From assembly GCA_030141605.1 (NCBI GenBank), contig JAQGDQ010000215.1:248001-312000 (forward strand): a stretch of DNA of 64,000 bases, given 5' to 3'. Under the pieces are notes generated by a model that was given only the letters and a program-made list of their open reading frames with translations, had not been told where the DNA came from and searched no databases. The DNA is from Tubiluchus corallicola (lineage: Eukaryota > Animalia > Priapulida). Of the stretch, positions 8,368 through 60,165 are shown one piece after another; the stretch's first letter is position 1; each line of letters begins with the position of its first letter. Both the position numbers and the translations under genes were made by a program.

Positions 8368-14661
<6,294 letters not shown>

Positions 14662-24856: not shown

Positions 24857-29261
<4,405 letters not shown>

Positions 29262-30749
29262 CTTTTCGTAGAATAATTTGATAACTTTCGTCTGATCTGT
29301 TGCTGGTATTTTGCAGTAGAAAATTTGCATATATATATATACTTGCTAATAAAAGGATGTACCATTTTTTTATTACAGACACTTAAAAACATTTACAGTT
29401 AAAATACCACAACTGTATTAAGGCTTTCAATTTACATAGTTAAAAAAATATACGTTTCGGCAGATCTACTGCTAGCTCTGTCGAGACGTTTGACATGATC
29501 TTTTAACTATGTAAATTACAAGTTTTATTAAAATTAAGGATGTATTACATTTCAGTGTTCGAATTATGGGTTTCTAAATGAATAGTCATGAGTTGTAAGA
29601 GGGCATATTTTGTTATTTTAAGAGAAATAATAAAAAAATAAGAAAAGGAGCAATAAGGAGCTGCAGCTAAATCCGCGCAGGACTTATCATATTAACTCTC
29701 ATTTCTTGTTACTTCATATCAGTTTTAGAACCAGTTTGTGCTTTTGGAAATATAAATAATAGTGACGTGACCGGAATTTTGCTTAATTTGCAGCGATTTA
29801 TTCTTTTATTGGGGACAACAGTAGAGTTGACTCTTTTGTGGAATGCTTGCGGAGTTCACATGCACTCTTACGGGGAATGTTGCGTAGTAGAATCTTAGGA
29901 TTCAAAAACACTTCGTTTTATAGTTTTGAGGAAAGGAGAATAGCTAAGATCGAAGTTAAGTAATTTCGAGGCTGGTACAGGAATGCATGGATGGCTACCA
30001 GTTCAAAACTTTGTTATGTAATTTTCATTCGCTACACTAATTCTCAGTGTCTCATCTCCGAAGCATAGCTTTGAAAATGAACTTGATTCAGTGAGCACCG
30101 GAACTTTCCAGATCAAGTGAGCCCTGCCGTTGTCGCGTTGATTGTCCCGTTGTCGCGAGAATATAACGTACCACGTTATGGTATAGTGATTGCAGTGTAG
30201 CATAGTTGTAGCACAGTGTAGTAGGTACTACCGTAAGTGTGGTCTAAATCAAAGCTGACATTGATTTCTTAAAAAATTAGCCTCGTTCTGGTGGTTAAAC
30301 GAGGAGCAATTTTTGTGGAGTTGCAAAGGTCGACTTAGTTTATACTTTACCAATTATTCTGAAGACAACATATTTTACACAAACCATAGCAGTTCGTCAT
30401 TTTGCATCACTGTGAATTGATCGCATTTTATTTTTCTGTTGGGTACAGGTGACAAAAGTAATCCCATCTACCTGCCTCACAGAACATGATTTGAAAAACT
30501 ATTGTGCTGGTTACGAACTACCGTCTTCTTAAAATGGATGTATAAAGATGTTGGTACTGCTAAAACAAAGAGCGAACAAGAAGCAAGAAAGTCAATTTTC
30601 GATAATAATACAGCAGCATTGGATAAATGTTCTACAAAAGTTATATTTTCATAATTTGGTGGAAAAAGGAAAGGTGGGAGAAAAAACACAAAGATCAAAA
30701 CACCAATGGCGAACAAGGGTAGTAAACCTGACACCTGACACCAATAGAT

Positions 30750-30905
30750 CTGCACATCTCACGGTCATTCTAAGAAACTGTTTAAATGTTGCGCAAGAAT
30801 TGTAAAAGTTCATTTTTCTCACACTGTGTAGTGAACAAGTGGAACAGTTGGCCAGAAAGGGTGATCAGTGCACAGAATTTCAATCTTTTCAAGAAGCCAT
30901 TAAGG
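30750..30905 (+). mobile_element. Ancient CR1-type LINE ORF2 3' fragment within block A (also ~38730-38888 and ~44265-44418)
   Basis: Translates with a frameshift as GHSKKLFK...SFFSHCVVNKWNSWPERVISAQNFNLFKK, resembling the CR1 ORF2 C-terminus (RGHslKL...FFS.RVV..WN.LP..VV.A.....FK). Confidence 0.7.
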
Positions 30906-31384
30906 GCTTCACGGTAATCATGCTTTAAGAAGCCAAAATTATCATGAAACATTGAAACTGCAGGTTTTTTGTACCTTTGATGTAAAATCTCACAAGTCGA
31001 AACTATATTGCTCAACTTTACACATTTTATACTCAAAATTTTTCGTTAAGTTTTTAGGTAAAGACTCCAATAGGCTCTGAATCTTTTGCTAGAATTTTTT
31101 TAGTGTTGAAAGTTCCAGTCTTGAATCAAAATTGCCCTTCTGTGTGCGAACAGATGTAGATGCTCCTCTTTTAGGAAGCTGCTCACATTGAATATTATAC
31201 GTGATTAACATTTTTGTCCTCACTGACACACACTGAAAGGTTTGTGTATTTAATTTATGAGTTTGTAAATGAGGCATATTTACAAAAACGAAAAGTAATG
31301 GACTAAACTCTAGAGAAAATATATTTGTACAAGTTATATAGTTTATTAAACAATAATTTATATTTTACAAAACTTATATTTTAC

Positions 31385-31691
31385 AAAGATGCAGCAATAA
31401 AAGAAGCAGGAGACATTATTATTAATAAAGTATGTTGAATACAAATTGCATTTGTACCATTTTTGATTAAATTTCATTGTATAATATTTGCATTCTGAGA
31501 AGATATCAGCTTTCTGGCTGGCAAAATTCAACTAGAACTTAAATATAGAATCTACACTTCTATTTCACTTATGTGGTTAGTTCATTGCTACACAGTTATT
31601 TGATTAACTTACATGTATTTGATTTAGTTTGGGGTAGAGCTCATACTGTCAGGGATACCATAAGCACATGTGAGTGTACTCTTCTAACACA
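31385..31691 (+). pseudogene. Captured CRYM fragment (3' part of exon 6 plus start of intron 6), copy 1
   Basis: Collinear with 11624-11932 (AAAGATGCAGCAATA...ATTATTATTAATAAAGTATGTTGAA...TAACACA). Confidence 0.93.
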
Positions 31692-32310
31692 CGACACACC
31701 CTATTCACACCTTTGGCACGTCCAATTTACTGTCAAAGTTTCTCACTCAACATGCTGCACAATAACCCTTGTAGAAAGACCCATTGATCCATTGCAGAGA
31801 ACTTTGTGATTCGTCTTTGAAGCAACCCAAGTGTGGACAATTTTTCTGGCAAAAGAATGGCTGAGTCACTGGATAGTTGGAGGTGTCATTCATGTCTCCT
31901 TTCGTCAGGAGATGACGAATTAAAGTTTTCGGGCAAGCTAGAAAGAACGAATCCGCATCGCTGTCAGTAATGCTCACCATTTCTATCCATCTCTTTTCAT
32001 ATCCACCTTTTCATTACTATCTCTAGGTAAAACTTGAGCAGGGAATGCAGGGAATCTTCCAAGAATTGCGTCAACAACAATTTCTTGTTACTTCTAAAGA
32101 TGTATGTATTCAATTTGCATAATTCGCGTATCCATCGCCATTTTTTTCATGACCTCCAAGAATAATGAGGTTGCCAATGGAAAATCCACAGTTAAATTGC
32201 AGATTTCCGGTGGATATTCCAGCTCACAAATCACGAAATATCCCACGTTAGCATCCTTTTTGATGGTAGACAGATCAAGGCTACTACGATTGGCTAACTT
32301 TCAGAAGTAA
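31692..32310 (-). pseudogene. Decayed Polinton/Maverick/adintovirus-type protein-primed DNA polymerase B relic, copy 1
   Basis: Ordered motifs on the - strand: VGYFVICELEYPPEICNLTVDFPLA (consensus GY.lEvDLeYP.elHd.hndyPLA), LLKFYLE, DSDADSFF (degenerate YtDTDSf), DTSNYP..QPFF.....HLGCFKDES, RAKGVN. Contains stops, frameshifts and a large internal deletion. Confidence 0.8.
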
Positions 32311-32528
32311 AATTGTATGACGTAAAATTTACACAGGGCAATCAACACGTCACACGTTGCTTGCATAGCAACTGAAACTCAGATACAAGCCTTGTGACGT
32401 CACGCTATTGTAAGAACAAGCACTTCGAGCAAATCGGTTGAAGATGTAGGTGCTGCTGTGCAGCTGGTTTCACATTTTCTAAGTGCCTAGCAGCTGCACC
32501 ACCTTTTGTCGCTTGCTTCTTCTCCAGG

Positions 32529-34224
32529 ATGTTGGGTAATCGCAGCACCTATGTAGTACTCACGGGTTCTGCAACCTGGATAATTTTGAGAATTGCTTTA
32601 GTAGGAGGAATTCATTTTGTGGACAAAGATACAGCATGTAATAGCACTCGGAGATCTCCAGAATGTCCAAGATGTCGCTATGAGAACTATTACTCTAATT
32701 CGTCAGTCTGTCTAATCATTTTCAAAGGACGTCTGGATAAGAAAATTTTTGAAAGTGTCTTCAATGCTTTGTCCAAAGACACCGTTTATATATGGGAAGT
32801 TTGGCTCTTTGGCTATAACACTCAGCTTCGTGTATTAGCAAATGATATATTTGCTAACCGAAGGGCATATTTCGTTCGCAAGTTGGAAATAAAACATTCA
32901 GGATTAACAGAGATTACTGCCAACACTTTCACAATGTTCTCAAATTTACATCACCTTAAAATGATGACACATCATCACTTGACCTTTATAGATGACAAAG
33001 CATTTACAGGTCTACATAAGCTAGAATTTCTGGAAATAGCTGATGCTAAAAAATTGAAGTATCTTGGCAGCTTGGATCTTACAGACAGTCCAAAATTAAA
33101 TAAAATACTAATTAGAGGAACTGGAGTAAGACATATGGAAGAACCAAAAATATCTGTTCCCTATGCTAATGTAGAAATCACCATAATAAAAGGTATACTA
33201 TTAGAATGATTTACTGAAATACTGCTTCTGAGATTTTGTGATATGTTCTTTATTATTATTTCTCTGCTACAATATTAACTATCTTCAAAAGCTTAACACC
33301 TAATGTCAGCAAGCTTCATGGTCACACACATGAAATTGTGGCTTAGACAGTGAAGTAACAATGTTGTCAAATGTCAAGGGCATTAATTTTGCTAATTTTT
33401 CAATTATTACTCAACTCCTGTTAGGGTTTGGCTTTTATCATTTTCTTACATGCAAATAATTTACTTCCTAATTAAACCCAAAAAATGTTATTAATTAAAT
33501 ATGTACCCCAAATGTTCAAGTTTTGGATTTCGAGAATAAATTTACTAAACAAAAAGGCATCAGTATCTTAAGCAGCTTAACTGAAAACAATAATTGTCGA
33601 TATCACAATTGTTTGTTCATTACTGCTGGTTTTTATACAAACAATGAAGTAATAATATGTAACTGGTAAAATATTTTATAAAATAATCACAATAGCTGGT
33701 AAGCACACCAGGTCAAAACATCGCAAAAATTTCTATCATTCATATCATTCATAAGTTTGTTGCTTTAATAAAAAAAGCAAAAGAGGGAAACAAAGAAAAG
33801 TTGAATAACACATGAAAAGGAAAGGAAAAGAAGGAAGAGAGGAATACAAAAAAGGAAGAAAATAAAGAGGAATTAAAAAGCCAAAAAGAGGCACAAAAGG
33901 AAAAATAAAGCCAACAACAAAAACTTATAAAAGCACTTGACTAATTTATCGTGTTATTAATTTATTTTAGAATCATATTGGGGTCAGTACATTGACTGCG
34001 ATTGCACCTGGTCTTGGCTGTTCGATAATGACTGGAGAGGGATAAATGTTACATGTGACCCAGATGGACATGGTGATTACTCTACGTGGTTTATGCGGTG
34101 TAAACCACCGGTGGATGCAGTTATTGACAACAATTCACAACTGAAATTACATGATAATACAGCCTTAGCTGACCTTACGCAACTGGCAATTTTTTTATTT
34201 TACAAAATCTTTGCAGCACTATAA
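32529..34224 (+). CDS. LRR cell-surface protein, paralog 1 (305 aa): signal peptide, Cys-rich N-cap, ~5-6 LRRs, CDC-type C-cap, stalk, hydrophobic GPI-like tail
   Basis: Exon 32529-33192 (AAG|GTATAC) plus exon 33971-34224 (TTTTAG|AA) join in frame. LRRs include LTEITANTFTMFSNLHHLKM and LTFIDDKAFTGLHKLEFLEI. Exon 2 = ESYWGQYIDCDCTWSWLF...VTCDP...RCKPP...LAIFLFYKIFAAL*. Confidence 0.88.
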
Positions 34225-35477
34225 TTACTGCAGTATCAGATATAATTGTGATCATCATCAGTTATAACAGAAAATTAACACAGAATCAATGTTATGCAGG
34301 AAGTGATTGGCACGAAATATGTTACAAAATTAAATCAATCATTAGTGCTATTGCCAATGTTACTCTAAAGGAACGTACTCAAATAACAGAGTAAACTTCT
34401 TAAATAGATTAAATTTCTTTATACAAAATAAATCAATTTTGTAGCATTTTTTCCTTTGTGTTTTACTCTTCATACAATTTCTCTCTCAGTCTGTCAGCAG
34501 TGGCTGACTGACCCACCAGAATACCGTGAAGTTCTTCGGTGGGCCCCAAAGTAATGGATGATTAACTGTCATCGGTGTACTCTGTACATGCCTCGTCTTT
34601 TTATTTCAGTGAACATATCAGTAATTATTTAACCTTCATCACCCCAGAGATTGCCTTTAGTACAAGGAAGCAAATCATTATTAACTAAATTCACTAGTAA
34701 TGATAGCTATTGCTAAACAAGTATGCACACGTTTCAATTTTTAGTACACTTTGAAATCAATTTTAAATTATGCTTTGGAAATTATTCGGATTAGTTGTTC
34801 TATTATTGAGATTTTCATTTTTATTATCAGATTAATAAAATTTTCTAGTATTTGTCTTATGCATGCATTAACATAAAAATGAATACAGCAATATTGAATA
34901 GATGTAACATTTTAGTTATGCCAAAAACCTTTATTTTTATTGGATTGTTTTAACTATGTTTTAAGATTAAGTGGTTTCTTTAGACAGGACCCTTTTCAAA
35001 GTTTTCCCAGTAGAAATTTTAGTTCCAGTCTGCCACTAGCTGTCAGGACGGTTTCAGAACCAGTTTGTGCTTTAGGAAATATAAATAATAGCCACGTGAC
35101 CGGAATTTTGCTTAATTTGCAGCGATTTATTCTTTTATTGGGGACAACAGTAGAGTTAACTCTTTTGTGGAAAGCTTGTGGAGTTCAGATGCACTCTTAT
35201 GGGGAATGTTGCATTGTAGAATATTAGGATTCAAAAACACTTTGCTTTATAGTTTTGAGGAAAGGAGAAGAGCTAAGATCGAAGTTAAGTAATTTCGAGG
35301 CTGGTACGGGAATGGATGGATGGCCTTCAGTTCAAAACTTTGGTATGTTACTTTCATTCGCTACACTAATTCAGCGAGCACTGGAACCTTCCAGATGCTG
35401 CCGTTGGCCCGTTGATTGCAGTAATCTTGCTCGGATTGTGCCGAATTAAAATATAACGTACCACGTTGTGGTATAGT

Positions 35478-38090
35478 ATAATATTATGACCATTTATTTG
35501 CTGTAAACAAAATAATATTAAGAAGCAATGGAGTACGATTAACAGCTTACTAAAAATTAAAAGTAAAGCACAAGTTGCCCCTTCCTCTGTAGATAACAAT
35601 GGTCATACCACAAGTGACTACCACTCTATTGCTAATGCATTTAATAAATTCTTTTAGTCTGTAGGTAGTAATATGGCCAATAAAATTCCATCCATTTCGA
35701 AAACATACCAATCATTCTTAAATGCTCCAAATGATAAATCTGTCTTCTTTTACCTTATCTCTGAATTTGAAACATTGTTGTCTCTTAATAAACTTAACAA
35801 AAATAAATCACCTGGCCCAAAAATGTCCCAGTTAAATTCTACAAATTAGCAACTAATTTAATTGTCCCAGTTCTTTCTCGATTATTCAATATGGCAGTTT
35901 CTGAAGGAACCTTTCCTAAATGTCTAAAAGTAGCTAAAGTAAAACAACTTTATAAAGAAAATTCGCCAACCAACCTATCAAATTATCGTCCAATTTCTCT
36001 CCTGTCACCAGTTTCCAAAATTTTTGAAAATATTACTTGTAATCGCATTAACAATTTTCTCACTTCATGTAATATACTAATGAAATTTCAATTTGGTTTT
36101 TGCAAAACTTACTCCACTTCATTAGCTACTTCCGAATTTGTTGAAAATATGCTTCTAAATTTAGACAAAAAGTTTTCACTTGTGCAATATTCTTCGATTT
36201 ATCTAAAGCTTTTGAGATCACAGTTCAGCATGATATTCTACTACATAAATTACATTATTATGGCATCAGAGGCCCTGTCTTGGAACTCCTTAAATCGTAC
36301 TTAACTAACCAACAACAGTTCACCACTATTAACAATACATGCTCTGATTTGCTAGACATAAACTGTGGTGTACCTCAAAGATGAACTTTTGGGCCGCTGC
36401 TTTCCTGATCTATATCAACGACCTACCTCTTGCTACTAATTTTACACTCGTCTTTTCGCTGATGACACAAGTCTCTTCCTCACATCTACTAACTATTCAA
36501 CTTTACAACATCGCACTAACAATGAACTAAAAAAGATTGATGACTGGATGAAAGCAAATAAATTATCTGTTAATTACACTAAAACTATGTATATGTTAAT
36601 CATTAGGAACCTTTCACAACAAGACTTCCATTCTGAACTCAAAATTGGCGACACAACTAACAGAAAGTAATAGTATAAAATACCTTGGCTTGCATATTGA
36701 CAACAATATGAAGTGGACTACGCACATTTCCTCTACAGCAACAAAATTAAGCAAAACAGCTGGTATTTTTGCAAAGTTAAGACATTTTGTTAATTTGCCT
36801 ATTTTGAAAATGATCTACCATGCATTAGTCTATCCTTTCCTCCAATACTGTGTGTTGTCTTGGTGGCAAACAAAAAATACTTATTACAACCACTATTAAC
36901 AGTTCAGAATGAAATAGTTAAATACATGACTTTCGCCAATTACAGAGACCACGCCACACCATCGTACATACACCTTAGTTTATTGAAAGTAGAAGATATT
37001 TATAATCTTGAATTATTTAAATTCATGTATAAGTATAATAACTGGCAGTTGCCTGAATTATATACTAACTACTTTACCTTATACAAAGATGTTCACTTTC
37101 GCTATACTAGGTCTTCCAGTAAGGGACACTATTTTCAAACACGATTTAACACAGCGTATGGCTTAAATACCTTACAGCACAATGGAGTTATTTTGTGGAA
37201 TAGTATACCCAATTCAATCATTTCCCCTCCTTCTTTAAAAATAGCTACCAAACAATATAAGATATTTTTACTTAGTAAATATACAATGCACTAATGTTTT
37301 TCTTTTACTAATAGGTATCTTTATGACCTTTGTTACTTTATTAATAAAAGGTATATATCAATTAAAATGAAATTATTCATTCATCGCAACCTATATCTGT
37401 ATCTGTTTCCACTTGCAAAAAGCTCTTAGCTTATAACCAGCAAAAACCAGTGATACAAACATTTTTTGAATGTATTATTGTACCATTAATTTTGTGAACG
37501 AATCACTAAGATTCATATAATTTGCCTTCCCCCCTCTCCCTGACCATAGCACATTTTAAAGGTTATGATCGCTACATTACTACCATCAATTATATTGAAA
37601 TGTTCTATACAATTATAGTTATTACTATAAGTATAATGTATAATTTAATCTCTTCTCCCCCACTTAAATTTGACTATATATATGTGTATATATATATATC
37701 ATTGTATACACAAGTAAGCAATATGGTGCTTTGCAATACAAGTGGTACATTGACAGATAATCACATAATTCATATTCATAACTATTTTAAAAAAATTCAC
37801 TCTTTAAGGCTCACTCAAAATCATAATTACATATTATGTTTTCCTTTCTTAACTTTCAAGTTTATTGCTCTTATACCATTGCTATTACTACATCATTTAC
37901 GTCGTCCTTATTTACATTAAGTTATCTACAGAAGCATGCATAACTATAATCATTTTTTCATTTAAGTAAGATGAATGTGCAAATGACCGTATGGTCGTAC
38001 ACTCACCTCGCACTACTCAAATTATTTTATTTAAAGTTCGTAATGTGTTTGATATTGTACTTTTATGTGTGAAAATAAATTCATAGTTCA
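35478..38090 (+). mobile_element. 5'-truncated, inactivated non-LTR retrotransposon (L2/Crack/CR1 group), RT region plus 3'UTR
   Basis: RT motifs NYRPISLLSPVSKIFE, QFGF, DLSKAF, YGIRG, CGVPQ, GPLLFLIYINDLP, LFADDT and KYLGLHID, spread over frameshifted pieces. Ends AATAAA-TTCATAGTTCA. TATAGT duplicated at 35472-35477 and 38091-38096. Absent from the equivalent site in A1 and A3. Confidence 0.93.
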
Positions 38091-39372
38091 TATAGTGATT
38101 GCAGTGCAGCATAGTTGTAGCGCTGTGTAGTAGATACTACCATAAGTGTGGTCTAAATCAAAGCTGACATTGATTTCTTAAAAAAATTGCCTCGTTCTGG
38201 TGGTTAAACGAGGAACAATTTTTTGTGGAGTTGCAAAGGTCGACTTAGTTTATACTTGACCAATTATTTTGAAGACGACATATTTTACACAAACCATAGC
38301 AGTTTGTCATTTTGCATCACTGTTTCACTGTGAATTGATCAAGTTTTATTTTTCTGTTGGTTACAGGTGACAAAAGTAATCCCATTTACCTGCTTCACAG
38401 AACATGATTTGAAAAACGACTGTGCTGGTTACGTACTACCGTCTTCTTAAAATGGATGTATAAAGATGATGGTACTGCTAAAACGCCGAGCGCCAAGCAA
38501 GAAGCAAGAAAGTCAATTTTCGATAATGATACAGCAGCATTGGATAAATGTTCAACAAAAGTTATATTTTCATAATTTTGTGGAAAAAGGAAAGGTGGGA
38601 GAGAAAACACAAAGAGTCAAAGGGTAGTAAGTTACGATATGGAAAGGAGGCGTTACATAAACTATTTCGGGCTCAAAATGTTCCTAAATCATGATCATAA
38701 TTCAATGAAACAGCCACTGACACCAATAGATCTGCACATCTCATGGTCATTCTAAGATACTGTTTAAATGTTGTGCAGGAATTGTAAAAGTTCATTTTTC
38801 TCACACCACATAGTGAACAAATGGAACAGTTGGCCAGAAAGGGAGATCAGTGCACAGAATTTAAATCTTCTCAAGAAGCCATTAAGGGCTTCACGGTAAT
38901 CATGCTTTAAGAAGCCAAAATTATCATGAAACATTGGAACTGCAGGTTTTTATACCATTGGGGTAAAATCTCACAAGTCGAAACTACATTCCTCAACTTT
39001 ACGTATTTTTATAGTCAAAATTTTTCGTTAAATTTTTGGGTAAAGGCTCCAATAGGCTCTGAATCTTTTGCTAGAATTTTTTTAGTGTTGAAAGTTCCAG
39101 TCTTGAGTCGAAATTGCCCTTCTGTGTGCGAACAGATGTAGATGGTCTTCTTTTAGGAAGCTGCTCACATGGAATATTATACGTGATTAATATTTTTGTC
39201 CTCACTGATACACACTGAAAGCTTTGTGTATCTAATTTATGAGTTTGTAAAAGAGGAATATTTATAAGAACGAAAAGTAATGGACTAAACTCTAGAGAAA
39301 ATATATTTGCACAAGTTATATAGTTTATTAAACAATAATTTACATGTTTATTAAATAAAACTTATATTTTAC

Positions 39373-39683
39373 AAAGATGCAGCAAAAGAAGAAGCAGGAG
39401 ACATTATTATTAATAAAGTAAGTTGAATACAAATTGCATTTGTACCATTTTTGATTAAATTTCATTGTATAATATTTGCATTCTGAGAATATAGCAGCTT
39501 TCTGGCTGGTAAAATTCAACTAGAACTTAAATATAGAATCTACACTTCTATTCCACTTATGTGGTTAGTTCATTGCTACACAGTTATTTGATTAACTTAC
39601 ATGTACTTGATTTAGTTTTTGTTGTAGAGCTCATACTTTCATGGATGCCATAAGCACATGTGAATGTGTACTCTTCTAACACA
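39373..39683 (+). pseudogene. Captured CRYM fragment (exon 6 end plus intron 6 start), copy 2
   Basis: Collinear with 11624-11932 and 31385-31691. Confidence 0.93.
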
Positions 39684-40292
39684 CGACACACCTTATTCAC
39701 ACCCTTGGCACGTCCAATTTACTGTCAAAGTTTCTCACTCAACATGCTGTGCAATTACGCCTGTAGAAAGTCCCATTGATCCATCGCAGAGAGCCTTGTG
39801 ATTCGTCTTTGAAGCAACCCAAGTGTGGACAATTTTTCTGGCAAAAGAATGGCTGAGTCACTGGATAGTTGGAGGTGTCATTCATGTCTCCTTTCGTCAG
39901 GAGATGAGGAATTAAAGTTTTCGGGCAAGCTAAAAAGAACGAATCTGCATCGCTGTCAGTAATGCTCACCATTTCTATCCATCTCTTTTCATATCCATCT
40001 TTTCATTTCTATCTCTGGGTAAAACTTGAGCAGGGAATGCAGGGAATCTTCCAAGAATTGGATCAACAACAATTTCTGGTTACTTCTAAAGATGGACGTA
40101 TTCAATTTGCACAATTCGCATATCCATCGCCATTTTTTTCATGACCTCCAAGAATAATGAGGTTGCCATTGGGAAATCCCCAGTTAAATTGTGGATTTCC
40201 GGCGGATATTCCAGCTCACAAATCACGAAATATCCGACGTTAGCATCCTTGTTAATGGTACACAGATCAAAGCTACTATGGTTGGCTAACAT
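39684..40292 (-). pseudogene. Decayed Polinton/adintovirus-type DNA polymerase B relic, copy 2
   Basis: VGYFVICELEYPPEIHNLTGDFPMA, DSDADSFF, DTSNYPVTQPFF..KN..HLGCFKDES and RAKGVNK, in order on the - strand. Disrupted. Confidence 0.82.
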
Positions 40293-40510
40293 CAGAAGTA
40301 AAATTGTATGACGTAAAATTTACACAGGGCATTCAACATGTCACACGTTGCTTGCATAGCAAACGAAACTCAGATACAAGCCTTGTGACGTCACGCTATT
40401 GTTACAACAAGCAAATCGGTTGAAGATGTAGGTGCTGCTGTGCAGCTGGTTGCCCATTTTCTAAGTGCCTAGCAGCTACACCACCTTTTGTCGCTTGCTT
40501 CTTCTCAAGG

Positions 40511-42199
40511 ATGTTGGGTAATCGCAGTACCTATGTAGTACTCGCTGGTTCTGCAACCTGGATAATTTTGAGAATTGCTTTAGTAGGAGGAATTCATTGG
40601 ATAGAGAAAAATGCTACAGCATGTAATAGCACTCGGAGATCTCCAGAATGTCCAATATGTCACTATCAGAACTATTACTTTAATTCGTCAGTTTGTGTAA
40701 TCGTGGTCAGAGGCCTTCTGAATAAGAAAATTGTTGAAAGTGTCTTCAATGCTTTGTCCAAAGACACCGTTTATATATGGGAAGTTTGGTACCTTGGCTA
40801 TAACACCCAGCTTCGCGTGTTAACAAGTGATATCTTTGCTAACCGAAATGCATATTTGGTTCGCAAGTTGGTCATATATTATTCAGAATTAACAGAGATT
40901 ACCGCCAACACTTTCATAATGTTCTCAGATGTGGATCACCTTAAATTGAGGACAAATCATCACTTGACACTTATCGATGACAATGCATTTATAGGTCTAC
41001 ATAAGCTAGAATTTCTGGAAATAGCTAATGCTAGAAGACTGAACTATCTTGGCAGCTTGGATCTTACAGACAGTCCAAAGTTAAATACAATACTAATTAG
41101 AGGAACTGGAGTAAGACATATGGAAGAACCAAAAATATCTGTTCCCTATGCTAATGTTAATATCACCATAATAAAAGGTATACTATTAGAATGATTTACT
41201 GAAATACTGCTTCTGAGATTTTGTGATACGTTCTTTATTATTGTTTCTGGGCTACAACATTAACTATGTCCAAAAGTTTAACACCTAATGTCAGCAAGCT
41301 TGATGGTCACACACCTGAAATTGTGGCTTAGACAATGAAGTAACAATGTTGTCAAATGTCAAGGGCATTAATTTTGCTAATTTTTTAATTATTACTCAAC
41401 TCCTGTTAGGGTTTGGCTTTTATCATTTTCTTACATGCAAATAATTTTACTTCCTAATTAAACCCAAAAAATGTTATTAATTAAATATGTACCACAAATG
41501 TTCAAGTTTTGGATTTCGAGAATAAATTTACTAAACAAAAAGGCATCACTATCTTAAGCAGCTTAACTGAAAACAATAATTGTCGATATCACAATTGTTT
41601 GTTCATTACTGCTGGCTTTTATACAAACAATGAAGTAATAATATGTAACTGGTAAAATATTTTATAAAATAATCACAATAGCTGGTAAGCACACCAGGTC
41701 AAAACATCGCAAAAATTTCTATCATTCATATCATTCATAAGTTTGTTGCTTTAATAAAAAAGGAAAAGAGGGAAAGCAAAGAAAAGCTCAATAACACATG
41801 AAAAGGAAAGGAAAAGCAGGAAGAGAGAAATACAAAAAAATGAAGAAAATAAAGAGGAATTAAAATGCCAAAAAGAGGCAAAAAAGGAAAAATAATTCTG
41901 ACATAAAGCACTTCACTAATTTATCGTGTTATTAATTTATTTTAGAATCACCATGGGGTCAGTACATTGACTGTGATTGCACCTGGTCTTGGCTGTTCGA
42001 TAATGACTGGAGAGGGATAAATGTTACATGTGACCCAGATGGACATGTTGATTACTCTACATGGTTTATGCGGTGTAAACCACCGGTGGATGCAGTTATT
42101 GACAACAATTCACAACTGAAATTAAATGATAGTACAGCCTTAGCTGTCCTTACGCAACTAGCAATTTTTTTATTTTACAAAATCTCTGCAGCACAATAA
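40511..42199 (+). CDS. LRR cell-surface protein, paralog 2 (306 aa), same architecture as paralog 1
   Basis: Exon 40511-41177 plus exon 41946-42199 join in frame. The ORF is intact despite many substitutions. C-terminus LAVLTQLAIFLFYKISAAQ*. Confidence 0.88.
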
Positions 42200-45100
42200 T
42201 TACTGCAGTATCAGATATAATTGTCATCATCATCACTTACCACAGAAAATTAACACAGAATCAATGTTATGCAGAAAGTGATTGGCAGGAAATGTTTTTC
42301 AAAATTAAGGTCCATCGTTAGTGCTATTGCCAATGTTACTCTAAAGGAACGTACTCAAATAACAGAGTAAACTTCTTAAATAGATTAAATTTCTTTATAC
42401 AAAATAAATCAACTTTGTAGCATTTTTTCCTTTGTGTTTTACTCTTCATACAATTTCTCTCTGAGGCTGTCAGCAGTGGCTGACTGGCCCACCAGAATAC
42501 TGTGAAGCTCCTTGGTGGGCCCCAAAGTAATGGATGATTAACTGCCATCGGTGTACTCTGAACATGCCTCGTCTTTTGATTTCAGTGAACATATGAGTAA
42601 TTATTTAACCTTCATCACCCCAGAGATTGCCTTTAGTACATCAAGCTATCAGCATTTTGCTAGGTGGCAGGCCTGTGTTAAGATAAGCTGACCACGATGT
42701 GACACTAAATTACACATACCATTGATAGCTGGTTGGCAGCAGCTGCATAATTTTCACATACCTCCAGGAAGTAAATCATTATTGACTAAATTCACTAGTA
42801 ATGATAGCTATTGCTAAACATATATGCACACGTTTCAGTTTTTAGTACACTTTGAAATCATTTTTAAAGTATGCTTTGAAAATTATTCGGATTAGTTGTT
42901 CTATTATTGAGATTTTCATTTTTATTATCAGATTAATATAATTTTCTAGTATTTGTCTTGTGCATGCATTAACATAAAAATCAATACAGCAATACTGAAT
43001 AGATGTAATATTTTAGTTATGCCAAAGACCTTTATTTTTATTCGATTGTTTTAAAAATGTTTTAGAATTAGGTGGTTTCTTTAGACAGAACCCTTTTCAA
43101 AGTTTTCCCAGCAGAAATTTAGTTCCAGTCCGCCACTAGCAGTCAGGACGGTTTCAGAACCAGGTTGTGCTTTCGGAAATATAAATAATAGTCACGTGAC
43201 CGGAATTTTGCTTAATTTGCAGCGATTTATTCTTTTATTGGGGACAACAGTAGAGTTGACTCTTTTGTGGAATGCTTGCGGAGTTCACATGCACTCTTAT
43301 GGGGAATGTTGCGTAGTAGAATCTTAGGATTCAAAAACACTTCGTTTTATAGTTTTGAGGAAAGGAGAATAGCTAAGATCGAAGTTAAGTAATCTCGAGG
43401 CTGGTAGGGGAATGAATGGATGGCCACCAGTTCAAAACTTTGTTATGTAATTTTCATTCGCTACACTATTTCTCAGTGTCTCATCTCCGAAGCATAGCTT
43501 TGAAAATGAACTTGATTCAGTGAGCACCGGAACTTTCCAGATCAAGTGAGCCCTGCCGTTGTCGCGTTGGTTGCAGAATATAACGTACCACGTTATGGTA
43601 TAGTGATTGCAGTGTAGCATAGTTGTAGCACTGTGTAGTAGATACTACCGTAAGTGTGGTCTAAATCAAAGCTGTCAAGCATATACTTAAAAAATTAGCC
43701 TCATTCTGGTGGTTAAACGAGGAACAATTTTTGTGGAGTTGCAAAGGTCGACTTAGTTTATACTTGACCAATTATTCTGAAGACGACATATTTTACACAA
43801 ACCATAGCAGTTCGTCATTTTGCATCACTGTGAATTGATCGCATTTTATTTTTCTGTTGGGTACAGGTGGCAAAAGTAATCCCATCTACCTGACTCACAG
43901 AACAAAATTTGAAAAACTACTGTGCTGGTTACGAACTACCGTCTTCTTAAATTGGCTGTGTAAAGATGTTGGTACTGCTAAAACGCCGAGCGCCAAACAA
44001 GAAGCAGGAAAGTCAATTTTCGATAATAATACAGCAGCATTGGATAAATGTTCAACAAAAGTTATATTTTCATAATTTGGTGGAAAAAGGAAAGGTGGGA
44101 GAAAAAACACAAAGGATCAAAACGTCAATGGCGAACAAGGGTAGTAAACCTAAGGGTACTAAGTTACGATATGGAAAGGTGGCGTTACGTAAATTATTTC
44201 GGGCTCAAAATGTTCCTAAATCATGATCATAATTCAATGAAACAGCCACTGACACTACTAGATCTGGACATCTTGCGGTCATTCTAAGAAACGTGAATGT
44301 TCATTGCAAGAATTGTAAGTTCCTTTTTCTCACACCGCGTAGTGAACAAGTGGAACATTTGGCCAGAAAAAGGTGATCAGTGCACCGAATGTAAATCTTT
44401 TCAAGAAGCCATTAAGGGCTTCACGGTAATCATGCTTTAAGAAGCCAAAATTATCATGAAACACTGCATCTGCAGGTTTTTTATACTTTACACATTTTTA
44501 TACTCAAAAATTTCCGTTAAGTTTTTGAGTAAAAACTCCAAAAACCTCTGAATCTTTTACTGGACTTTTTTAGCGTTGAAACTGCTGAAAGTTCCAATCT
44601 TGAATGGAAATTGCCCTTTTGTGTGCGAACAGATGTAGATGCTCCTCTTTTAGGAAGCTGCTCACATTGAATATTATACGTGATTAATATTTTTATCCTC
44701 ACTGATATACGCTGAAAGGTTTGTGTATCTAATTTATGAGTTTGTAAAAGACTGGCATATTTACAAAAACGAAAAGTAATGGCCTAAACTCTAGAGAAAA
44801 CATATTTGTACAAGTTATATATTTTATTAAACAATAATTTACATGTTTATTAAATAAAACTTATATTTTACAAATGCTGGGAGTTTCTCACATAAGGTTT
44901 TGCATAAAACTACCTGAGAACAACATTTTTAAACAAAATACTGGTTCAGGTAAGTGCCTATATTTGGCAAAATTTGTTTAATCAATGGTTTATAGTTTAA
45001 TACATTCGCAAAACAATAAATTATTTTGTTACTCAACATTTGAAATTAGTAAATACAATTTAAATATAACAGTTGCGAAATGCAGCATAAGAATTTTATG

Positions 45101-47584: not shown

Positions 47585-50500
47585 CTAGCTCTTTTTTGTG
47601 TGATCTGTAGCTGCAATTTGTGCTGCAAGGTCAGCGAATTTAGCAGAATATTCGACGCTGTTCTCCGTCATAATAGCTTGCAATGCTGTATTCAATGACG
47701 TCTCAGCCTACAAGAACAAAACAAAAACATTTACACGCTAAGTGAAAAACACTGACGCATAACAGCAAATAATTTCTCTTTAGCGACTAGATTTTTCATT
47801 CACAGCAAGCTAATAAAATTTAGCAATAAAAATAATAAAAAAATTTTCTGAGTTGACCACTAACTACTCTCTCTTGGGTGTAGCATTTTCATTAAGCATA
47901 TGCTCTATAGCCAAGACTACAGCCACCTCTTCACCACTGACTACTTTCTCTTGGGTGTAGCATCTCATAAAGCATATGTTCTATAGCCAAGACTACAGCC
48001 ACCTCTTGACCACTGACTACTTTCTCTTGGGTGTAGCATCTCATAAAGCATTTGCTCTATAGCCAAGACTACAGCCACCTCTTGACCACTGATTACTTTC
48101 ACTTGGGTGTAGCATTTTCATAAAGCATATGCACTATAGCCAAGACTACAGCCACCTCTTGACCACTAACTACTTTCTCTTGGGTGTAGCGTTTTCATAA
48201 AGCATATGCTCTATAGCCAAGACTACAGCCACCTCTTGACCACTGACTACTTTCTCTTGGGTGTAGCATCTCATAAAGCATATGCTCTATAGCCAAGACT
48301 ACAGCCACCTCTTGACCACTGACTACTTTCTCTTGGGTGTAACATCTCGTAAAGTATATGCTCCATAGCCAAGACTACAGCCACCTCTTGACCACTGACT
48401 ACTTTCTCTTGGGTGTAGCATCTCATAAAGTATATGCTCTATAGCCAAGACTATAGCCACCTCTTGACCACTGACTACTTTCTCTTGGGTGTAGCATCTC
48501 ATAAAGTATATGCTCTATAGCCAAGACTATAGCCACCTCTTGACCACTGACTACTTTCTCTTGGGTGTAGCACTTCATAAAGCATATGCTCTATAGCCAA
48601 GACTACAGCCACCTCTTGACCACTGATTACTTTCACTTGGGTGTAGCATTTTCATAAAGCATATGCTCTATAGGCAAGACTACAGCCACTTCTTGACCAC
48701 TGACTACTTTCTCTTGGGTGTAGCATTTCATAAAGTATATGCTCTATAGCCACCTCTTGACCACTGACTACTTTCACTTTGTGTGACATTTTCATAAAGC
48801 ATATGCTCTGTAGCCATGCTAAAAATTTTAAACCATGTAACTATTGACAACCATATTGCATTAATATATATTTTATTTAGTTTTTATTTTAGAATTCATT
48901 TTGTACATTAAAAAAGTACATAATATTATAAAATGTTAAAACAGTCAGCTATACACGTTATATAAAAATTACAAGAGGCTAGTTAAAATATTTATATACA
49001 TGTATAAGCAACAAGTCCTTGCTTAAGGACCCTAATGTGTTCCAGCAAAATGCGACTTACTGTACATACATATGCATCTAAACAAAACACATGAGGCAAG
49101 TGAATGAAATACATAACACACATAGGCCTGCAATGAATACAATAAAAATTTTATATTTAAAAAAATAAGATGTTAGTTGAAACTGATTATTCTTGAAGTT
49201 ATTCAGCGTTTATCCTCACTTCTAGAAAATAAAGTTGAAAAAAGTCTTACCAGAGGATCGAAAGACTTCCCAAACAGAGTGTCCCTAGACGACTCACTAA
49301 TTAAACTGACCGGGAGGTGAGAATTGTTATTTTTCAGCGGGCTGTCATCCGTGAGCAAGCTAGAGAAGAGTGAATGACTGTCCTGTAAAACAAATTAAAG
49401 CAATTAGATGTGAAAAGACACACAATGAAGTGAAGTTAACATTTACCTCAAAGTATTTTAAACAAGCAAAGATCACCTCGACTTGACCGACGATTCGTAA
49501 ATTATGTACATGATCTTTATATGTGAAAGGAAACTCAAAGAATCATAAGCATCTAATTTACTTACTTCTCCATTTAGCCAAGCTCCTTGAGAACTACAAT
49601 CACCTCTGAAGTGAGCTTGCGGATTCAAGTTACCTAGCAACATGGCGGTAGCATCACCAGTGCCCTCTTTGCTTTGATGTGAGGGAGTATGCACATTCTC
49701 CAATAACGAAGTGGTGGTATCACCTGCTTTGTTATGACTATTTGCATCAGTCTTTACATTCAGGTTGGCCAATAACGTCAAATCAGAATCGTTAATTTTG
49801 CCAGTGTTGTTAACCTTACTAGCTGCTTCGCTGAGAAGACCTGTAAGCAGAAAAATCATTAATAATCATAGCATAAAGGAAGCTGAGCACCCAGAACCGA
49901 TCAACTAGTTAGATTTATGAAGATTTTAACAAATAATCTTATTAAGTTACTAAGTTTAAAGTTACTATACTAGACATTACCAGAGAAAGAAGGGCCACCA
50001 CCGAATGCATAGTCGATGAGCTTCTCAGCTGATTCCGCTAAACCACTGGAAGTCAAACCTACAGTAGGAAAAAAACGTTAAAACATTTCTATAGACTATA
50101 TTTTGATTTCAAATTATAGCTTCTAAATTAACCGAACAGATGAGATGTTTCAAAATTTTGACCACAAAAATATTACAAATGGAAACGTACTACTATTTTC
50201 ATGCACACAGTGACTACTATATAGGCTCTAATCTTACCATCCATAGACTGCAATGAGATATCAAACATCGAACGCGAGTTCAAATAGGACTTTTCCGAAA
50301 CAGCGTGTGGGAGTTTGCCAACATCTGGAGAAACAGACTCAGACGAGGGGATAAGCTGTGATAACAGCGATCGAGCAGGTGAACTTGTACACAACGGTGT
50401 CTCTGTAAATAAATTAAAAAGAAGCATTTCTCAAAGATCTTAGAAACATAAAACATTTAGTAAAAAAAATAACAAAAATTTACGTTGCACAAAATGACCA

Positions 50501-53500
50501 TTATATAGTATATAAGGTGTGCTCACCAATGTCTTTTTGTTCCTTCGTAACAGATTCCGGAAGAATCCCTGAAAAACAATTTTATATCGATTGTTCGTAA
50601 TTAATAAATTCAGTAAGAATATTTTAGAGCAAAATCTGATGGTCATTTAAAAACTGTATGAATATCAATTCAAAATCAGTAGAATAAACTTCATGACAAA
50701 CTATTCGTACATGGTCCAGTCTATGTAATAGAAACTTACTGAACTAGTCGACCTCATCTAACTGAAAGACTTACAAAAACGATAGACATTAATTAGCAGG
50801 AATTAAAACTCATCATCACACTGCAGGTGAAATTACCAATTCTCCACTAAGAGGTATTTTTAAATGTCTACATTAAAGACATTCGATGGATCCTACTTAC
50901 GTATAGCAGTTTGAATTTCTTCAGCTGTGGAAGTGACTAGAGTAGTTGATTTCGTTTGTACAGTTGGCTCCGATACTATAACTTTCGTAACGGTCGCCTC
51001 AGGTAAGAGCACATTATGCTCCTTTGACACAGTCCTGGTGTTAGTCAAGTGTGATATCCCAGGCACAGACAGATGACTAGATGCAGGCAGAGCAGAAGAA
51101 AGGCCCACGAGGGCGGATGCGGATTCCGGTGTTGATAAGAAGCCTATGTTGATTGGTGTTGTGTCAGCTATGATTGTCGTGTCTGCAGGAGTAATTTTGG
51201 CACCCGACGCGCTCGAATTGAAACTATTAAATAGGCCACTTGCTACAGAACTGACATCATGTGGAACTAGTGAAAACGGCATCACGTGTGTGGTCACCTT
51301 AGGTACTAAAGCTCTCTGAAAGAAATCAAAAGCTATGACAACTGAGTTAAAAAACCCAACTTCACAACAACATAGCAAATACAGTTTTTGTTACAAATCT
51401 AAAGACGAAAAGCTATGGTGAGATTACACAAATAAATTAGGATTTCACGAAAAACCAGCATTACTGACAGTATTGTAAAACTGCGTCTGTGCAATAGGTT
51501 AGATAATTATGAAAACGTTATGAAAAGAAGCAAAATGGGCCTAAATAGTTACTGCATCTGTTTAACTCCTTCAGGACCTATATCATTCAAAATGGGTCTT
51601 ATAAGACCTATGACTTTTCTGCTACTATATGAGCAGAGACATAACTAAATGATTACAAATTAGGTACTGTTCTATTCAATAGAATCCTGGCTATCCACTC
51701 ATGCTATTTGTTTAAGCATTTATAAATGATTTAATAGTCTGGTGTACACTTGCATGATCGTTCACACTAATTTATTGATCGCCTGCTTGCTACAGCCCAA
51801 GTTGTGCAATGTTCTGCAGCTATTCCAGGAAAAAGAACCGATCAGCTAACGAAAAATTGTTCCATCTTTTAACAGGAAGTTCTCTTTAAAAATACAGTAG
51901 ACTTGAGGCCAAAGTGTATCAGAGTGTTGTGACTGATGAAAGCTTTTTTCAATTTTTTCTGTCAAAAATCGATTTTTAATTTGTCTAAGGCAAGCAAATG
52001 CATTTCGTATATATTTTGCATAAAAGCCCATTGTATGAGGAGTAGAAGCATCAAAAATGATCAAATATAATGTAATTGCTGCTTAAGTGAGAGCAGTTCT
52101 TTATGAACGCATACAAAATGCAGCAAACACTTATGGTCCTGAAGGAGTTACAAGGACAGGTGGCTTGCGCTGTCACCATTTTTCCTCCAGTACACTAAAA
52201 GCCGAGTCAGGTTATAAAGGAATAGGGAGAGTTCTGTTTGAGCGAAACAAGGCTAAAAAAATTCCGGCAAGATCAACTTTTATTCTTCAAATTAGCTGGC
52301 ACTTAATGATATCATTAATTAGATTATGATCGTGAAGGCCAGAATGCCAGGTCAGACAATAATTCTGACAAGAGTTTATTCAGACCTAGGGCTCACAGAT
52401 CAGGAGCCAAGGATTGTAATCATTATGCCAGTACGCTTTCCTATGACTACAGTGATATAAAATGAACAATACCTGTACAACCAGGGGTTTCCTTTGCTTC
52501 TTTCTTGTATTCTAAAACAGACAAAGCAATTATTAAATTTTCCAAACTTTTCTAAATATTCTAATAACAATCTACTATGAAAGGTGACAAAATACTTTTT
52601 CTTTTTACCTAAAGTAAGTATCTAGAAGCAATTATTTAAAAAAGAAAATCAAGCTTCTCGTACCGACATCATTCCAATTTGAGCTATAAAACTCTTCGTT
52701 GGCATAGTCTGCACAGGAGGCGTACTTGCTGGTTTCAATGGTCTAGGAGCTGTAACGGTTGGTCGCCTAAAACCGCCGTCAAACTGAGAGTCATTGACAG
52801 CACCAATGCCTGTTGTTACTGTAGGAGTGACAGCTTGTAGTTGAGAAGCCTAAAGTAGAGAAAATTTGGGGGTTAATTAGACTGTAAAGAAGAACCAACA
52901 GACAATCAAGTGAATTATTTTAACTGGAAAAGGTTATTCTTTAACTCCACAAAAGAATGACAAAATGCCTCTAGAAACACAAGTAATAGTTGCAACTATA
53001 TATATATATATATGGCAGTCCAAGAAATTGCATGTTGCTTAGACTAAATTCATACTTCAGAAGCCTCAGCTACCGCACTAGCAATAAATCTTGACGAAGC
53101 CAAGTCACGTCTTGAGGACTTTGGCGTTACCGGGTTCTGTGTTCGACATGTGTTACGCGACAAAGCCGGACTACGCACGGTTGACTTGCCCACAGGTGGT
53201 GAAGACGGCACACCCGAATGACGACAGCAACATGGTGAAGACGACAGCATGTTAGCCTGTAACAAAAATCGATGTGCATTCAGCTAGCTGTACATAATAT
53301 ATGGCATGCACATTAAAGAAATTTTAGCTTTGAATTAAGCAAGTGGTCATTGGTTCAAACTGATAATTTATAGTTATTAAACTCAAGCTTCAAATGATGT
53401 ACAAAAAGACACGAAAACTATATTATTGAATTAGCTTTCAACCCCACAGTACAAAGGTTCATTGCAGTAAAACTCTATCATAAGCAAACATATTTGTTTC

Positions 53501-59500: not shown

Positions 59501-60165
59501 CAACCGAGCATCCTAAATGCAGCTTTAGCACAACTTGTAACTTATATAAGATATGAACGGGTCTTTGGATTTTGTAATAAAATGTTAATGCTTGGAAGTA
59601 CTTCATTAACCTTGTATACTGAGAAACACATAATCAATTATTGATGGTATAACATACCTCACACAGGGCCTCGAAGAAAAGTTTAACATCATTGCTATTC
59701 CAGAGTTCCCAAGGACGTCTAGGTTTCACAGGAGGGGAACTTGTTGGTGATAACGTAGTTTGTGAGGGTGCAACTTTAGCTGAAATAGCAATACTTAACA
59801 GTATAATATATAATTTAACAAAAAAGTTTGTAAACAAATGACAAGCGATATAACTATAAGCTTGCATAAGAAGCTCTGCATGAACGAGACTAAAAACATC
59901 TTTTATTATAGCCATGTTTGAAAGATTTAGTGAAATAAAAACCTGGCCGTTTTGCTGGTGGTTGTGGCAAAGGTGGAGTTGAGTCTCGCCGTCGCCTTGG
60001 TACACGTGTACTGGCTCGCAATGGCTGACCGCCAGACGGTGAAAGGGAATCCGGGGCAGGCTTAGCAACTATTTCAACACATTGCAACTTCTGCAACTTG
60101 GAACGTGTCTCATGACGATGGTTAGCAACTATTTCAAGAACGCTGTCATGTTGCCCAGTGCTCAT
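47585..60165 (-). CDS. CRAMP1: Cramped / CRAMP1 chromatin regulator (SANT domain), 20 coding exons
   Basis: Exons 5'->3': 60165-59943, 59779-59658, 59426-59270, 59069-58998, 58732-58684, 58310-58213, 57652-57453, 57026-56655, 56035-55628, 54793-54737, 54298-54212, 53256-53056, 52849-52664, 52511-52473, 51315-50901, 50402-50238, 50058-49981, 49840-49566, 49382-49251, 47707-47585. All are GT-AG and phase-compatible. Motifs: RRPWELW...FFEALCEHGKDFEAIQ, KNKDQIRFFYYRTWHKI, QELYGLINY, RVKTPICPALKKL, LAQNPNVR, GEIYLMLG.PGKVKLEYEW, RKPLVVQR, MTENSVEYSAKFADLAAQI. The start ATG is the least certain part. Confidence 0.95.
47854..48815. repeat. Minisatellite, 76-bp unit, ~12-13 copies, in the last CRAMP1 intron
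   Basis: Unit TGACCACTGACTACTTTCTCTTGGGTGTAGCATCTCATAAAGCATATGCTCTATAGCCAAGACTACAGCCACCTCT; spacing measured as 48007 to 48083. Confidence 0.95.
51566..52147. mobile_element. piggyBac-like MITE
   Basis: TTAA|CTCCTTCAGGACC...GGTCCTGAAGGAG|TTAC: perfect 13-bp TIR, right TTAA mutated. Confidence 0.82.
53621..54124. mobile_element. Tigger/pogo-like non-autonomous element (degenerate left end)
   Basis: Right end AACCGAGGTATGACTG|TA is Tigger-like. CAGT at the left end. Repeated CAAATCGGTTTTCAA subterminal motif. Confidence 0.55.
54923..55522. mobile_element. Kolobok-like element family K1, copy 3
   Basis: TTAG|AGCAAAAT...GTCTTCCT|TTAA; collinear with copies 1 and 2. Confidence 0.82.
56067..56481. 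mobile_element. Tc1/mariner-type MITE
   Basis: TA|CACTCGTATCTCGCTTTGCTG...CGGCAAATCGAGATACGAGCG|TA: ~21-bp imperfect TIR with TA TSD. Confidence 0.8.

What the first reader, a model, noticed from the sequence alone, without database searches (positions are those of the whole stretch)
32529..42199. Pair of VLR-like, probably GPI-anchored LRR receptors diverging at the predicted ligand-binding face
Seen: both genes are intact. By hand count, exon 1 differs at about 42 of ~221 residues plus one codon indel, but at only about a dozen purely synonymous codons. The signal peptide and most of exon 2 are nearly identical, and the intron has stretches of hundreds of bases with almost no differences. 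Changes cluster in and just after the LxxLxL strands: LIIFKGR/VIVVRGL, VWLFG/VWYLG, LEIKHSG/LVIYYSE, NLHHLKMMTH/DVDHLKLRTN, IADAKK/IANARR, and the mature N-terminus FVDKD/WIEKNA. Established: this architecture (SP, LRRNT, LRRs, LRRCT, stalk, hydrophobic tail) with concave-face variability characterises agnathan VLRs and other LRR immune receptors. Inference: a lineage-specific diversifying recognition family (pathogen, allorecognition or gamete), convergent with VLRs rather than orthologous. I see no donor cassettes for somatic assembly in this window.
Basis: partly seen in the sequence, partly recalled or inferred. Interest (0 to 1): 0.85.

Follow-up and report, generated by a model that had tools for sequence, protein, structure and literature searches.

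The report
Twin LRR genes, diverging binding region
Two neighbouring, intact gene copies in what is likely an invertebrate encode leucine-rich-repeat proteins, predicted to sit on the cell surface, that differ sharply only in their predicted binding region, which likely means selection keeps two recognition specificities apart; they are not lamprey-type adaptive receptors.

Summary
Two open two-exon genes (305 and 306 aa) lie in a tandem array. Exon 1 differs at 42 residues plus one codon indel, with 13 synonymous-only codons. Noncoding DNA differs by 5.6%.

Changes favour the beta-strand segments (22 of 75 against 11 of 88 elsewhere), but are not resolved to outward-facing side chains.

The selection claim needs amending. 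In the variable region dN is 2.7 times the noncoding rate, but dS is raised too, so dN/dS is about 1.3 and not significantly above 1. The pattern is a divergence peak inside otherwise homogenised copies, as expected when selection resists gene conversion.

The genes fail VLR membership: the germline gene is complete, no cassettes lie in the window, repeats are 24-28 residues, and there is no Thr/Pro stalk. No homologue beyond generic LRR matches was found. The longest gap-free match is to FSH-receptor repeats, a lead only.

Best reading: an orphan, germline-encoded, probably GPI-anchored recognition pair, likely immune. Expression, GPI anchoring, ligand, family size and lineage are untested.

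The parts
32529..33192 (+). Gene A exon 1: predicted signal peptide (about 28 aa), 4-Cys N-terminal cap, 7 LRR strands
33193..33970 (+). Gene A intron, 778 nt, phase 1, GT-AG; holds a low-divergence tract at about 33300-33775, a likely recent gene-conversion tract
33971..34224 (+). Gene A exon 2: 4-Cys LRRCT-like cap (CxC-x16-C-x14-C), short linker, hydrophobic tail to the stop
   Evidence: LRRCT assignment rests on Cys spacing only
40511..41177 (+). Gene B exon 1, same layout, one extra codon
41178..41945 (+). Gene B intron, 768 nt, phase 1, GT-AG
41946..42199 (+). Gene B exon 2
32608..33010 (+). Divergence peak between A and B (52 differences in 400 aligned columns): mature N-terminus and most of the first five repeats
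29722..35050 (+). Tandem unit 1, carries gene A
   Evidence: 29722-30043 matches 35051-35372 (93%); 30735-34664 matches 38717-42640 (93%)
35051..43150 (+). Tandem unit 2, carries gene B and a 2.7 kb insertion with a broken reverse-transcriptase (LINE-like) fragment
43151..44874 (+). Truncated third unit that ends before the gene
   Evidence: matches 29722-30729 (94%) and 38091-39375 (85%); one search finds no third coding copy
34427..34432 (+). Candidate polyadenylation hexamer of gene A (counterpart at 42403 for B)
   Evidence: motif only
40171..40181 (+). NF-kB-like motif upstream of B only
   Evidence: consensus recalled; weak (3 of 100 shuffles reach the window's count)

Best explanation
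Two intact tandem genes encode LRR-only proteins that are predicted to be exported and likely GPI-anchored, and they likely act as germline-encoded recognition molecules whose binding regions selection keeps different while gene conversion likely homogenises the rest. Shown: intact frames, tandem array, Cys-capped LRR layout, a peak of both amino-acid and synonymous divergence over the N-terminus and first five repeats, near-identity of the C-terminal third and part of the intron. Inferred: export and GPI anchoring; binding through the strand face and the loops after it; conversion between the copies; selection against conversion in the binding region; a microbial or parasite ligand; signalling through a partner or action as an opsonin, since no cytoplasmic tail exists.
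For: Intact genes with hydrophobic N- and C-termini and no tail after the C-terminal stretch. Seven-strand LRR model, pLDDT 64, matching extracellular LRRs at Z 10-13. Columns 29-180 differ at 39 of 151, columns 181-268 at 4 of 88. dN there is 2.7 times the noncoding distance (p 4e-8) and 3.9 times at the 42 exposed strand positions. Fourfold sites differ at 7 of 45 there against 3 of 59 elsewhere and 208 of 3696 noncoding columns (p 0.012). A noncoding window with 4 differences in 400 points to recent conversion. Such a peak is the published signature of selection under conversion (PMC3924837, passages). Several exposed changes are radical (E121V, K123Y, H124Y, H142D, M147R). Precedents: mosquito APL1 (PMC3050937, passages) and amphioxus VLR-like proteins (PMC10199209, passages).
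Against: dN/dS is 1.13-1.27 and not different from 1 in mature exon 1, columns 29-180 or the exposed positions (p 0.5-0.7). The dS excess weakens without CpG sites (5 of 41, p 0.054). The exposed-position mask (14 of 42, p 0.015) does no better than the same mask shifted by 3 (14 of 40), and 6 of 28 inward or ladder positions also differ. The mask and the 29-180 boundary were chosen after seeing the alignment. Only two sequences, no alleles or outgroup. Many GPI-linked LRR-only proteins are not immune (Connectin, Nyx, Omg, NgR; PMC2235866, passages). Gene A has an Asp inside the hydrophobic tail where B has Val, which could weaken anchoring.
Confidence: 0.5

Rival explanations
1. Relaxed constraint: one or both copies drift after duplication, and exon 1 looks more divergent only because conversion happened to miss it or brought in a patch from an older copy.
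For: dN/dS close to 1; inward positions also change (6 of 28); a third unit has lost its gene and a LINE-like fragment sits in the array.
Against: No stop or frameshift in either gene; changes favour strand segments (22 of 75 against 11 of 88); the signal region and columns 181-268 stay nearly identical.
Confidence: 0.2
2. The repeats come from a glycoprotein-hormone receptor (type A LGR) ectodomain that lost its 7TM part; the proteins are surface decoys or binding proteins for cystine-knot ligands, now diverging in specificity.
For: The A/B profile ranks FSHR and TSHR first among 52 solved sequences. B residues 116-222 match FSHR without a gap over 82 residues (27.5 bits, 23 identities by my count); LHCGR, TSHR and a nematode LGR match in the same register. 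Repeat spacing 24-25-25-24 and loss of the Asn ladder fit. FSHR has the highest identity, 20%, among the 50 rows.
Against: Generic LRR proteins reach 27-33 bits on the same query, with gaps. For gene A FSHR ranks 17th. By fold FSHR scores Z 10.3, below TLR13, TLR3 and AMIGO-1. Type A LGRs have 12 LRRs and a hinge (PMC12753827, passages); these have 7 strands and a different cap. Other 25-residue-repeat proteins exist (P0107, P0110).
Confidence: 0.15
3. Self/non-self or gamete recognition or cell adhesion rather than microbe sensing; same anatomy, different ligand.
For: Diverging surface and possible GPI anchor suit this equally; GPI-linked LRR adhesion proteins are known.
Against: No partner gene seen in the window; allelic polymorphism, which such loci need (own knowledge), could not be examined.
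Confidence: 0.1
4. A and B are two alleles of one gene placed side by side by the assembly.
For: Flank divergence of 5-6% is within the heterozygosity of some marine invertebrates (own knowledge); no genome was held to check.
Against: A three-unit head-to-tail layout with a truncated third unit. Five listed contigs of run X1 in single-copy parts of the window differ from it at only 10 of 2637 letters, far below the A/B distance; 3 of the 8 listed pieces were left out as lying in duplicated or repeated DNA, and long contigs favour low-diversity stretches.
Confidence: 0.04
5. True VLR genes of a jawless vertebrate, or a somatically assembled equivalent.
For: Overall order of parts; VLRA is among the tied top fold matches (Z 12.6, rmsd 2.9, 147 aligned, 15% identity).
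Against: Complete germline genes with a coding intron, no cassettes in 64 kb, repeats of 24-28 residues, no Thr/Pro stalk (definition in PMC3308329, passages). The neighbouring cramped-like exon is only 63-70% identical to its best hits and departs from the vertebrate rows.
Confidence: 0.01

Closest known systems
Agnathan variable lymphocyte receptors (VLRA/B/C)
   Same: Signal peptide, Cys-capped LRR solenoid, hydrophobic C-terminus, variation around the strands; tied top fold match.
   Different: Complete germline gene, coding intron, no cassettes in the window, irregular 24-28 residue repeats almost without Asn ladder, no Thr/Pro stalk, nearly invariant C-terminal cap.
LRR_Only class of extracellular LRR proteins, GPI-linked subset (Connectin, Nyx, Omg, CD14; PMC2235866)
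   Same: Signal peptide, LRRNT, LRRs, LRRCT, short hydrophobic tail; the class is rich in lineage-specific singletons.
   Different: No orthologue among them; here a young pair with a local divergence peak.
Anopheles APL1A/B/C (PMC3050937)
   Same: Tandem germline LRR paralogues, paralogous conversion, high amino-acid diversity; fold match Z 10.5-11.6.
   Different: APL1 proteins are secreted and act with TEP1 and LRIM1; no sequence kinship shown; no immune data here.
Amphioxus VLR-like Bf66946 and FrLRR (PMC10199209)
   Same: Invertebrate germline LRR proteins that resemble VLRs without somatic assembly; FrLRR has a predicted GPI site.
   Different: FrLRR has a folate-receptor domain and Slit-type repeats; no kinship tested by sequence.
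Glycoprotein-hormone receptor ectodomains (FSHR, TSHR, LHCGR, nematode LGR)
   Same: Longest gap-free sequence match, 82 residues, same repeat spacing.
   Different: Seven strands instead of 12 LRRs, no hinge, no 7TM domain in the predicted product.

Membership tests
VLR | Incomplete germline gene with non-coding intervening sequence in place of the LRRs | tested here: not met
   All repeats are encoded in one open exon in both genes; definition from PMC3308329 passages.
VLR | Flanking donor LRR cassettes | tested here: inconclusive
   tblastn of both proteins finds only the two genes in 64 kb; VLR loci span about 2 Mb and no genome was held.
VLR | 18-residue LRR1, 24-residue LRRV/LRRVe, 13-residue connecting peptide | tested here: not met
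   Spacing 28, 28, 24, 25, 25, 24; Asn at the ladder position in 1 of 14 repeat positions.
VLR | Thr/Pro-rich stalk | tested here: not met
   25 residues after the last Cys hold 3 Thr/Pro in each gene.
VLR | No intron in the coding region | tested here: not met
   Phase-1 intron between repeats and C-terminal cap; predicted from DNA.
VLR | Somatic assembly in lymphocytes of a jawless vertebrate | not testable with these tools
   No RNA; lineage not fixed (searches point away from vertebrates).
LRR_Only extracellular LRR proteins, GPI-linked | Extracellular-type LRR solenoid | tested here: met
   Pfam LRR_8 27.8 and 28.1 bits, cut-off 27; fold matches Z up to 12.9, rmsd 3.0, 163 aligned.
LRR_Only extracellular LRR proteins, GPI-linked | No other extracellular domain | tested here: met
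   No other Pfam family in either exon of A or exon 1 of B; holds for the two-exon model.
LRR_Only extracellular LRR proteins, GPI-linked | Signal peptide | tested here: inconclusive
   Hydropathy 2.4 over 11 residues near the N-terminus; SignalP not available.
LRR_Only extracellular LRR proteins, GPI-linked | GPI signal at the C-terminus | tested here: inconclusive
   Terminal hydrophobic stretch (2.1-2.4 over 11 residues, 1.6-1.7 over 19) with no tail; contains polar residues; NetGPI not available.
LRR_Only extracellular LRR proteins, GPI-linked | Cys caps LRRNT and LRRCT | tested here: inconclusive
   Four Cys at each end; no Pfam or PDB hit for exon 2; N-cap has pLDDT below 50.
Type A LGR (glycoprotein-hormone receptors) | 12 LRRs, hinge region and 7TM domain | tested here: not met
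   Seven strands, stop after a short hydrophobic tail; definition from PMC12753827 passages.
Type A LGR (glycoprotein-hormone receptors) | Descent of the repeats from an LGR ectodomain | tested here: inconclusive
   Top, gap-free match for B and for the profile; not top for A or by fold.

The most novel reading that the evidence does not exclude
A glycoprotein-hormone-receptor ectodomain has been cut loose from its 7TM domain, recapped, GPI-anchored and duplicated, and is now diversifying as a recognition molecule: an independent route from an endocrine receptor to a VLR-shaped receptor family in an invertebrate.
Probability: 0.15. Interest if true: 0.75.

Novelty: new member of a known kind. 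Interest (0 to 1): 0.42.

Why it matters
Germline LRR-only proteins are the pool from which VLR-like receptors are thought to arise, and few invertebrate cases show the binding region diverging. This pair gives a small, testable case: two 84%-identical proteins whose differences sit in one region, inside an array that seems to undergo conversion. If the repeats do come from a hormone receptor, it would show a new source for such recognition proteins. Without expression or ligand data it remains one more orphan LRR pair.

Tried and rejected
No whole genome is held, so no family census. Homologue searches: 0 of 44 candidates scored among proteins of 106-338 aa; 8 of 7993 longer candidates at E up to 10, all generic LRR proteins; the HMMER search of 1.84 billion representatives gave 640 hits, the listed 150 all partial repeat matches at 24-36% identity; 46 of them scanned in Pfam showed no 7TM family among the five best families shown per protein. 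The ESM Atlas could not read the sequence. Sequencing runs: no RNA holder listed. Exon 1 of both genes had little or no contig cover in run X1, which proves nothing because of the tool's filter. I first read summed depth as four haplotype copies, then dropped this: listed contigs outside the genes have depths of 9 to 54. A two-chain fold of exon 1 with the exon 2 cap gave no verdict (scores 0.33, 0.56, 0.01; mark 0.34). The single-sequence model of exon 2 was poor (pTM 0.30) and showed only a C-terminal helix with some confidence; it was not used for a fold search. Foldseek gave no match at E up to 0.001. FSHR is not among the 50 rows. Promoter motifs: the CRE-like octamer lies upstream of both genes but occurs 9 times in the window, so it is not specific; the NF-kB-like site is in B only. 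Earlier findings: 0 in 3 look-ups. Paper searches for a described family of this kind (listings and abstract starts) showed none; the library is partial and no supplements were read. PMC2396169 (passages) reports no such LRR-only group in the passages shown.
Full report
Observation. Gene A runs 32529-33192 and 33971-34224 (305 aa), gene B 40511-41177 and 41946-42199 (306 aa). Each has one phase-1 GT-AG intron and an open frame. The splice is predicted from DNA. Exon 1 differs at 42 residues plus one codon indel, and 13 codons differ only synonymously. The first 28 residues differ at 1 position and exon 2 at 7 of 84. All quoted motif pairs are present.

Locus. The genes lie in a head-to-tail array with units starting near 29722, 35051 and 43151. 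The third unit stops at 44874, before the gene. Unit 2 carries a broken reverse-transcriptase fragment. tblastn finds no other LRR piece in the 64 kb. Noncoding parts of the two units differ at 208 of 3696 aligned columns. Five listed contigs of run X1 in single-copy parts differ from the window at 10 of 2637 letters (3 of the 8 listed pieces left out as duplicated or repeated DNA, thousands not shown). A and B are therefore more likely paralogues than alleles. The host is an animal with 35% GC. An exon of the neighbouring cramped-like gene is only 63-70% identical to the best 120 of 722 hits, whose named members are nearly all fishes, and it departs from the vertebrate rows printed. I infer an invertebrate; the lineage is not fixed.

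Protein anatomy. Pfam LRR_8 is reached just above its cut-off. A model of mature exon 1 (mean pLDDT 64, first 34 residues unreliable) has seven parallel-type strands. It matches extracellular LRR solenoids at Z 10-13 with no clear winner: TLR13 12.9, TLR3 and AMIGO-1 12.4; VLRA 12.6 tied with TLR3 and AMIGO-1. Repeat spacing is 28, 28, 24, 25, 25, 24 and the Asn ladder is almost absent. Four Cys flank each end; both termini are hydrophobic and nothing follows the C-terminal stretch. That suits a signal peptide and a GPI signal, though no predictor was run and the tail holds polar residues. The segment after the last Cys is not a Thr/Pro stalk.

Where the changes fall. Using the LxxLxL register, exposed strand positions differ at 14 of 42 against 19 of 121 others (one-sided p 0.015). 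Whole strand segments differ at 22 of 75 against 11 of 88 (p 0.007). Shifting the mask by +3 gives 14 of 40, shifts of +1 to +7 give 10-14 and shifts of -3 to -12 give 3-7; 6 of 28 inward or ladder positions differ as well. So the signal is 'strand plus the loop after it', not side-chain-resolved. It is also one-sided: 39 of 151 in columns 29-180, 4 of 88 in columns 181-268. The mask and this boundary were set after I had seen the alignment.

Selection. With a codon model and noncoding DNA as clock (distance 0.059), dN in columns 29-180 is 2.7 times neutral (p 4e-8) and 3.9 times at exposed positions. With dS free, dN/dS is 1.27 and 1.24, not different from 1, because dS is raised too (0.12, p 0.034 against noncoding). 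Fourfold sites confirm it: 7 of 45 in that region, 3 of 59 elsewhere (p 0.012; 5 of 41 and p 0.054 without CpG sites). A scan-corrected test finds a peak of 52 differences in 400 columns from 32608 and a trough of 4 in 400 noncoding columns, each beyond all 2000 shuffles. A peak of divergence in converted duplicates is described as a signature of selection that resists conversion (PMC3924837, passages). That fits better than simple accelerated protein change, but two sequences cannot exclude relaxed constraint with patchy conversion.

Relatives. No true homologue was found. One lead emerged: the A/B profile ranks FSHR and TSHR first among 52 solved sequences. B residues 116-222 align to FSHR without a gap over 82 residues, with LHCGR, TSHR and a nematode LGR in the same register. 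Against this, generic LRR proteins reach equal or higher scores with gaps, FSHR is 17th for gene A and mid-list by fold, and type A LGRs have 12 repeats, a hinge and seven helices (PMC12753827, passages). In the same search VLRC and VLRA score lower (E 0.0017 and 0.14).

Mechanism. Most likely (0.5) both proteins are exported, tethered by a GPI anchor or shed, and bind a foreign ligand through the strands and following loops of the first five repeats. With no cytoplasmic part they would act through a partner or as opsonins. Conversion and unequal crossing-over keep caps, intron and flanks alike, while selection keeps two specificities. Rivals are drift (0.2), a hormone-receptor-derived decoy (0.15), self or gamete recognition (0.1), false duplication (0.04) and true VLR (0.01).

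Comparison. By the features in PMC3308329 (passages) these are not VLRs: complete germline gene, coding intron, wrong repeat lengths, no stalk. They belong with LRR-only extracellular proteins, a class rich in lineage-specific singletons and with non-immune GPI-linked members (PMC2235866, passages). They would work like mosquito APL1 paralogues (PMC3050937, passages) or amphioxus VLR-like proteins (PMC10199209, passages). Five paper searches showed no description of this family (listings only, partial library, no supplements read).

Verdict. Real and well observed, but over-scored. It is a new orphan member of a known kind, with a clear divergence peak and an untested link to hormone receptors. 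Interest 0.42.

Noticed in passing
window 11624-11935, 31385-31694, 39373-39686: A 310 bp piece (end of an exon plus intron) of the gene at about 8.7-14.6 kb is copied upstream of each LRR gene at 93-94% identity. The source gene looks like mu-crystallin/ornithine cyclodeaminase by eye; that name is recalled and was not tested.
   Followed up: partly
window about 47600-60200, minus strand: Multi-exon cramped-like (CRAMP1) gene; one exon is 63-70% identical to its best hits, with no close relative in the collection.
   Followed up: partly
window 28772-28890, minus strand: Full-length 5S rRNA match, 77 bits, solitary and next to an (AAT)n run; may be a dispersed copy or pseudogene.
   Followed up: no
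window 32505-32528 and 40487-40510: Splice-acceptor-like pyrimidine tract ending in AG one base before the ATG of both genes: a 5' UTR intron, a trans-splice site or an upstream coding exon is possible.
   Followed up: partly
window 35500-37300: Broken reverse-transcriptase (LINE-like) fragment between the two genes, with frameshifts and stops.
   Followed up: partly
window 44292 / 38780 (run X1): One X1 contig joins these places with 23 letters that are not in the window: a further variant of the repeated flank may exist as an allele or another copy.
   Followed up: partly
window 28947-29258: Open frame of 104 aa ending at a donor-like site, no Pfam family; possibly an exon of an unrecognised gene just upstream of the array.
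   Followed up: partly
window 2400-2900, 3200-4220, 13125-13807, 47853-48816: Four minisatellite arrays, plus a dispersed repeat of about 620 bp at 11954, 23461 and 54919 that is very deep in run X1.
   Followed up: no
whole window: The CRE-like octamer occurs 9 times against 0.6 expected; several may lie in repeats.
   Followed up: no
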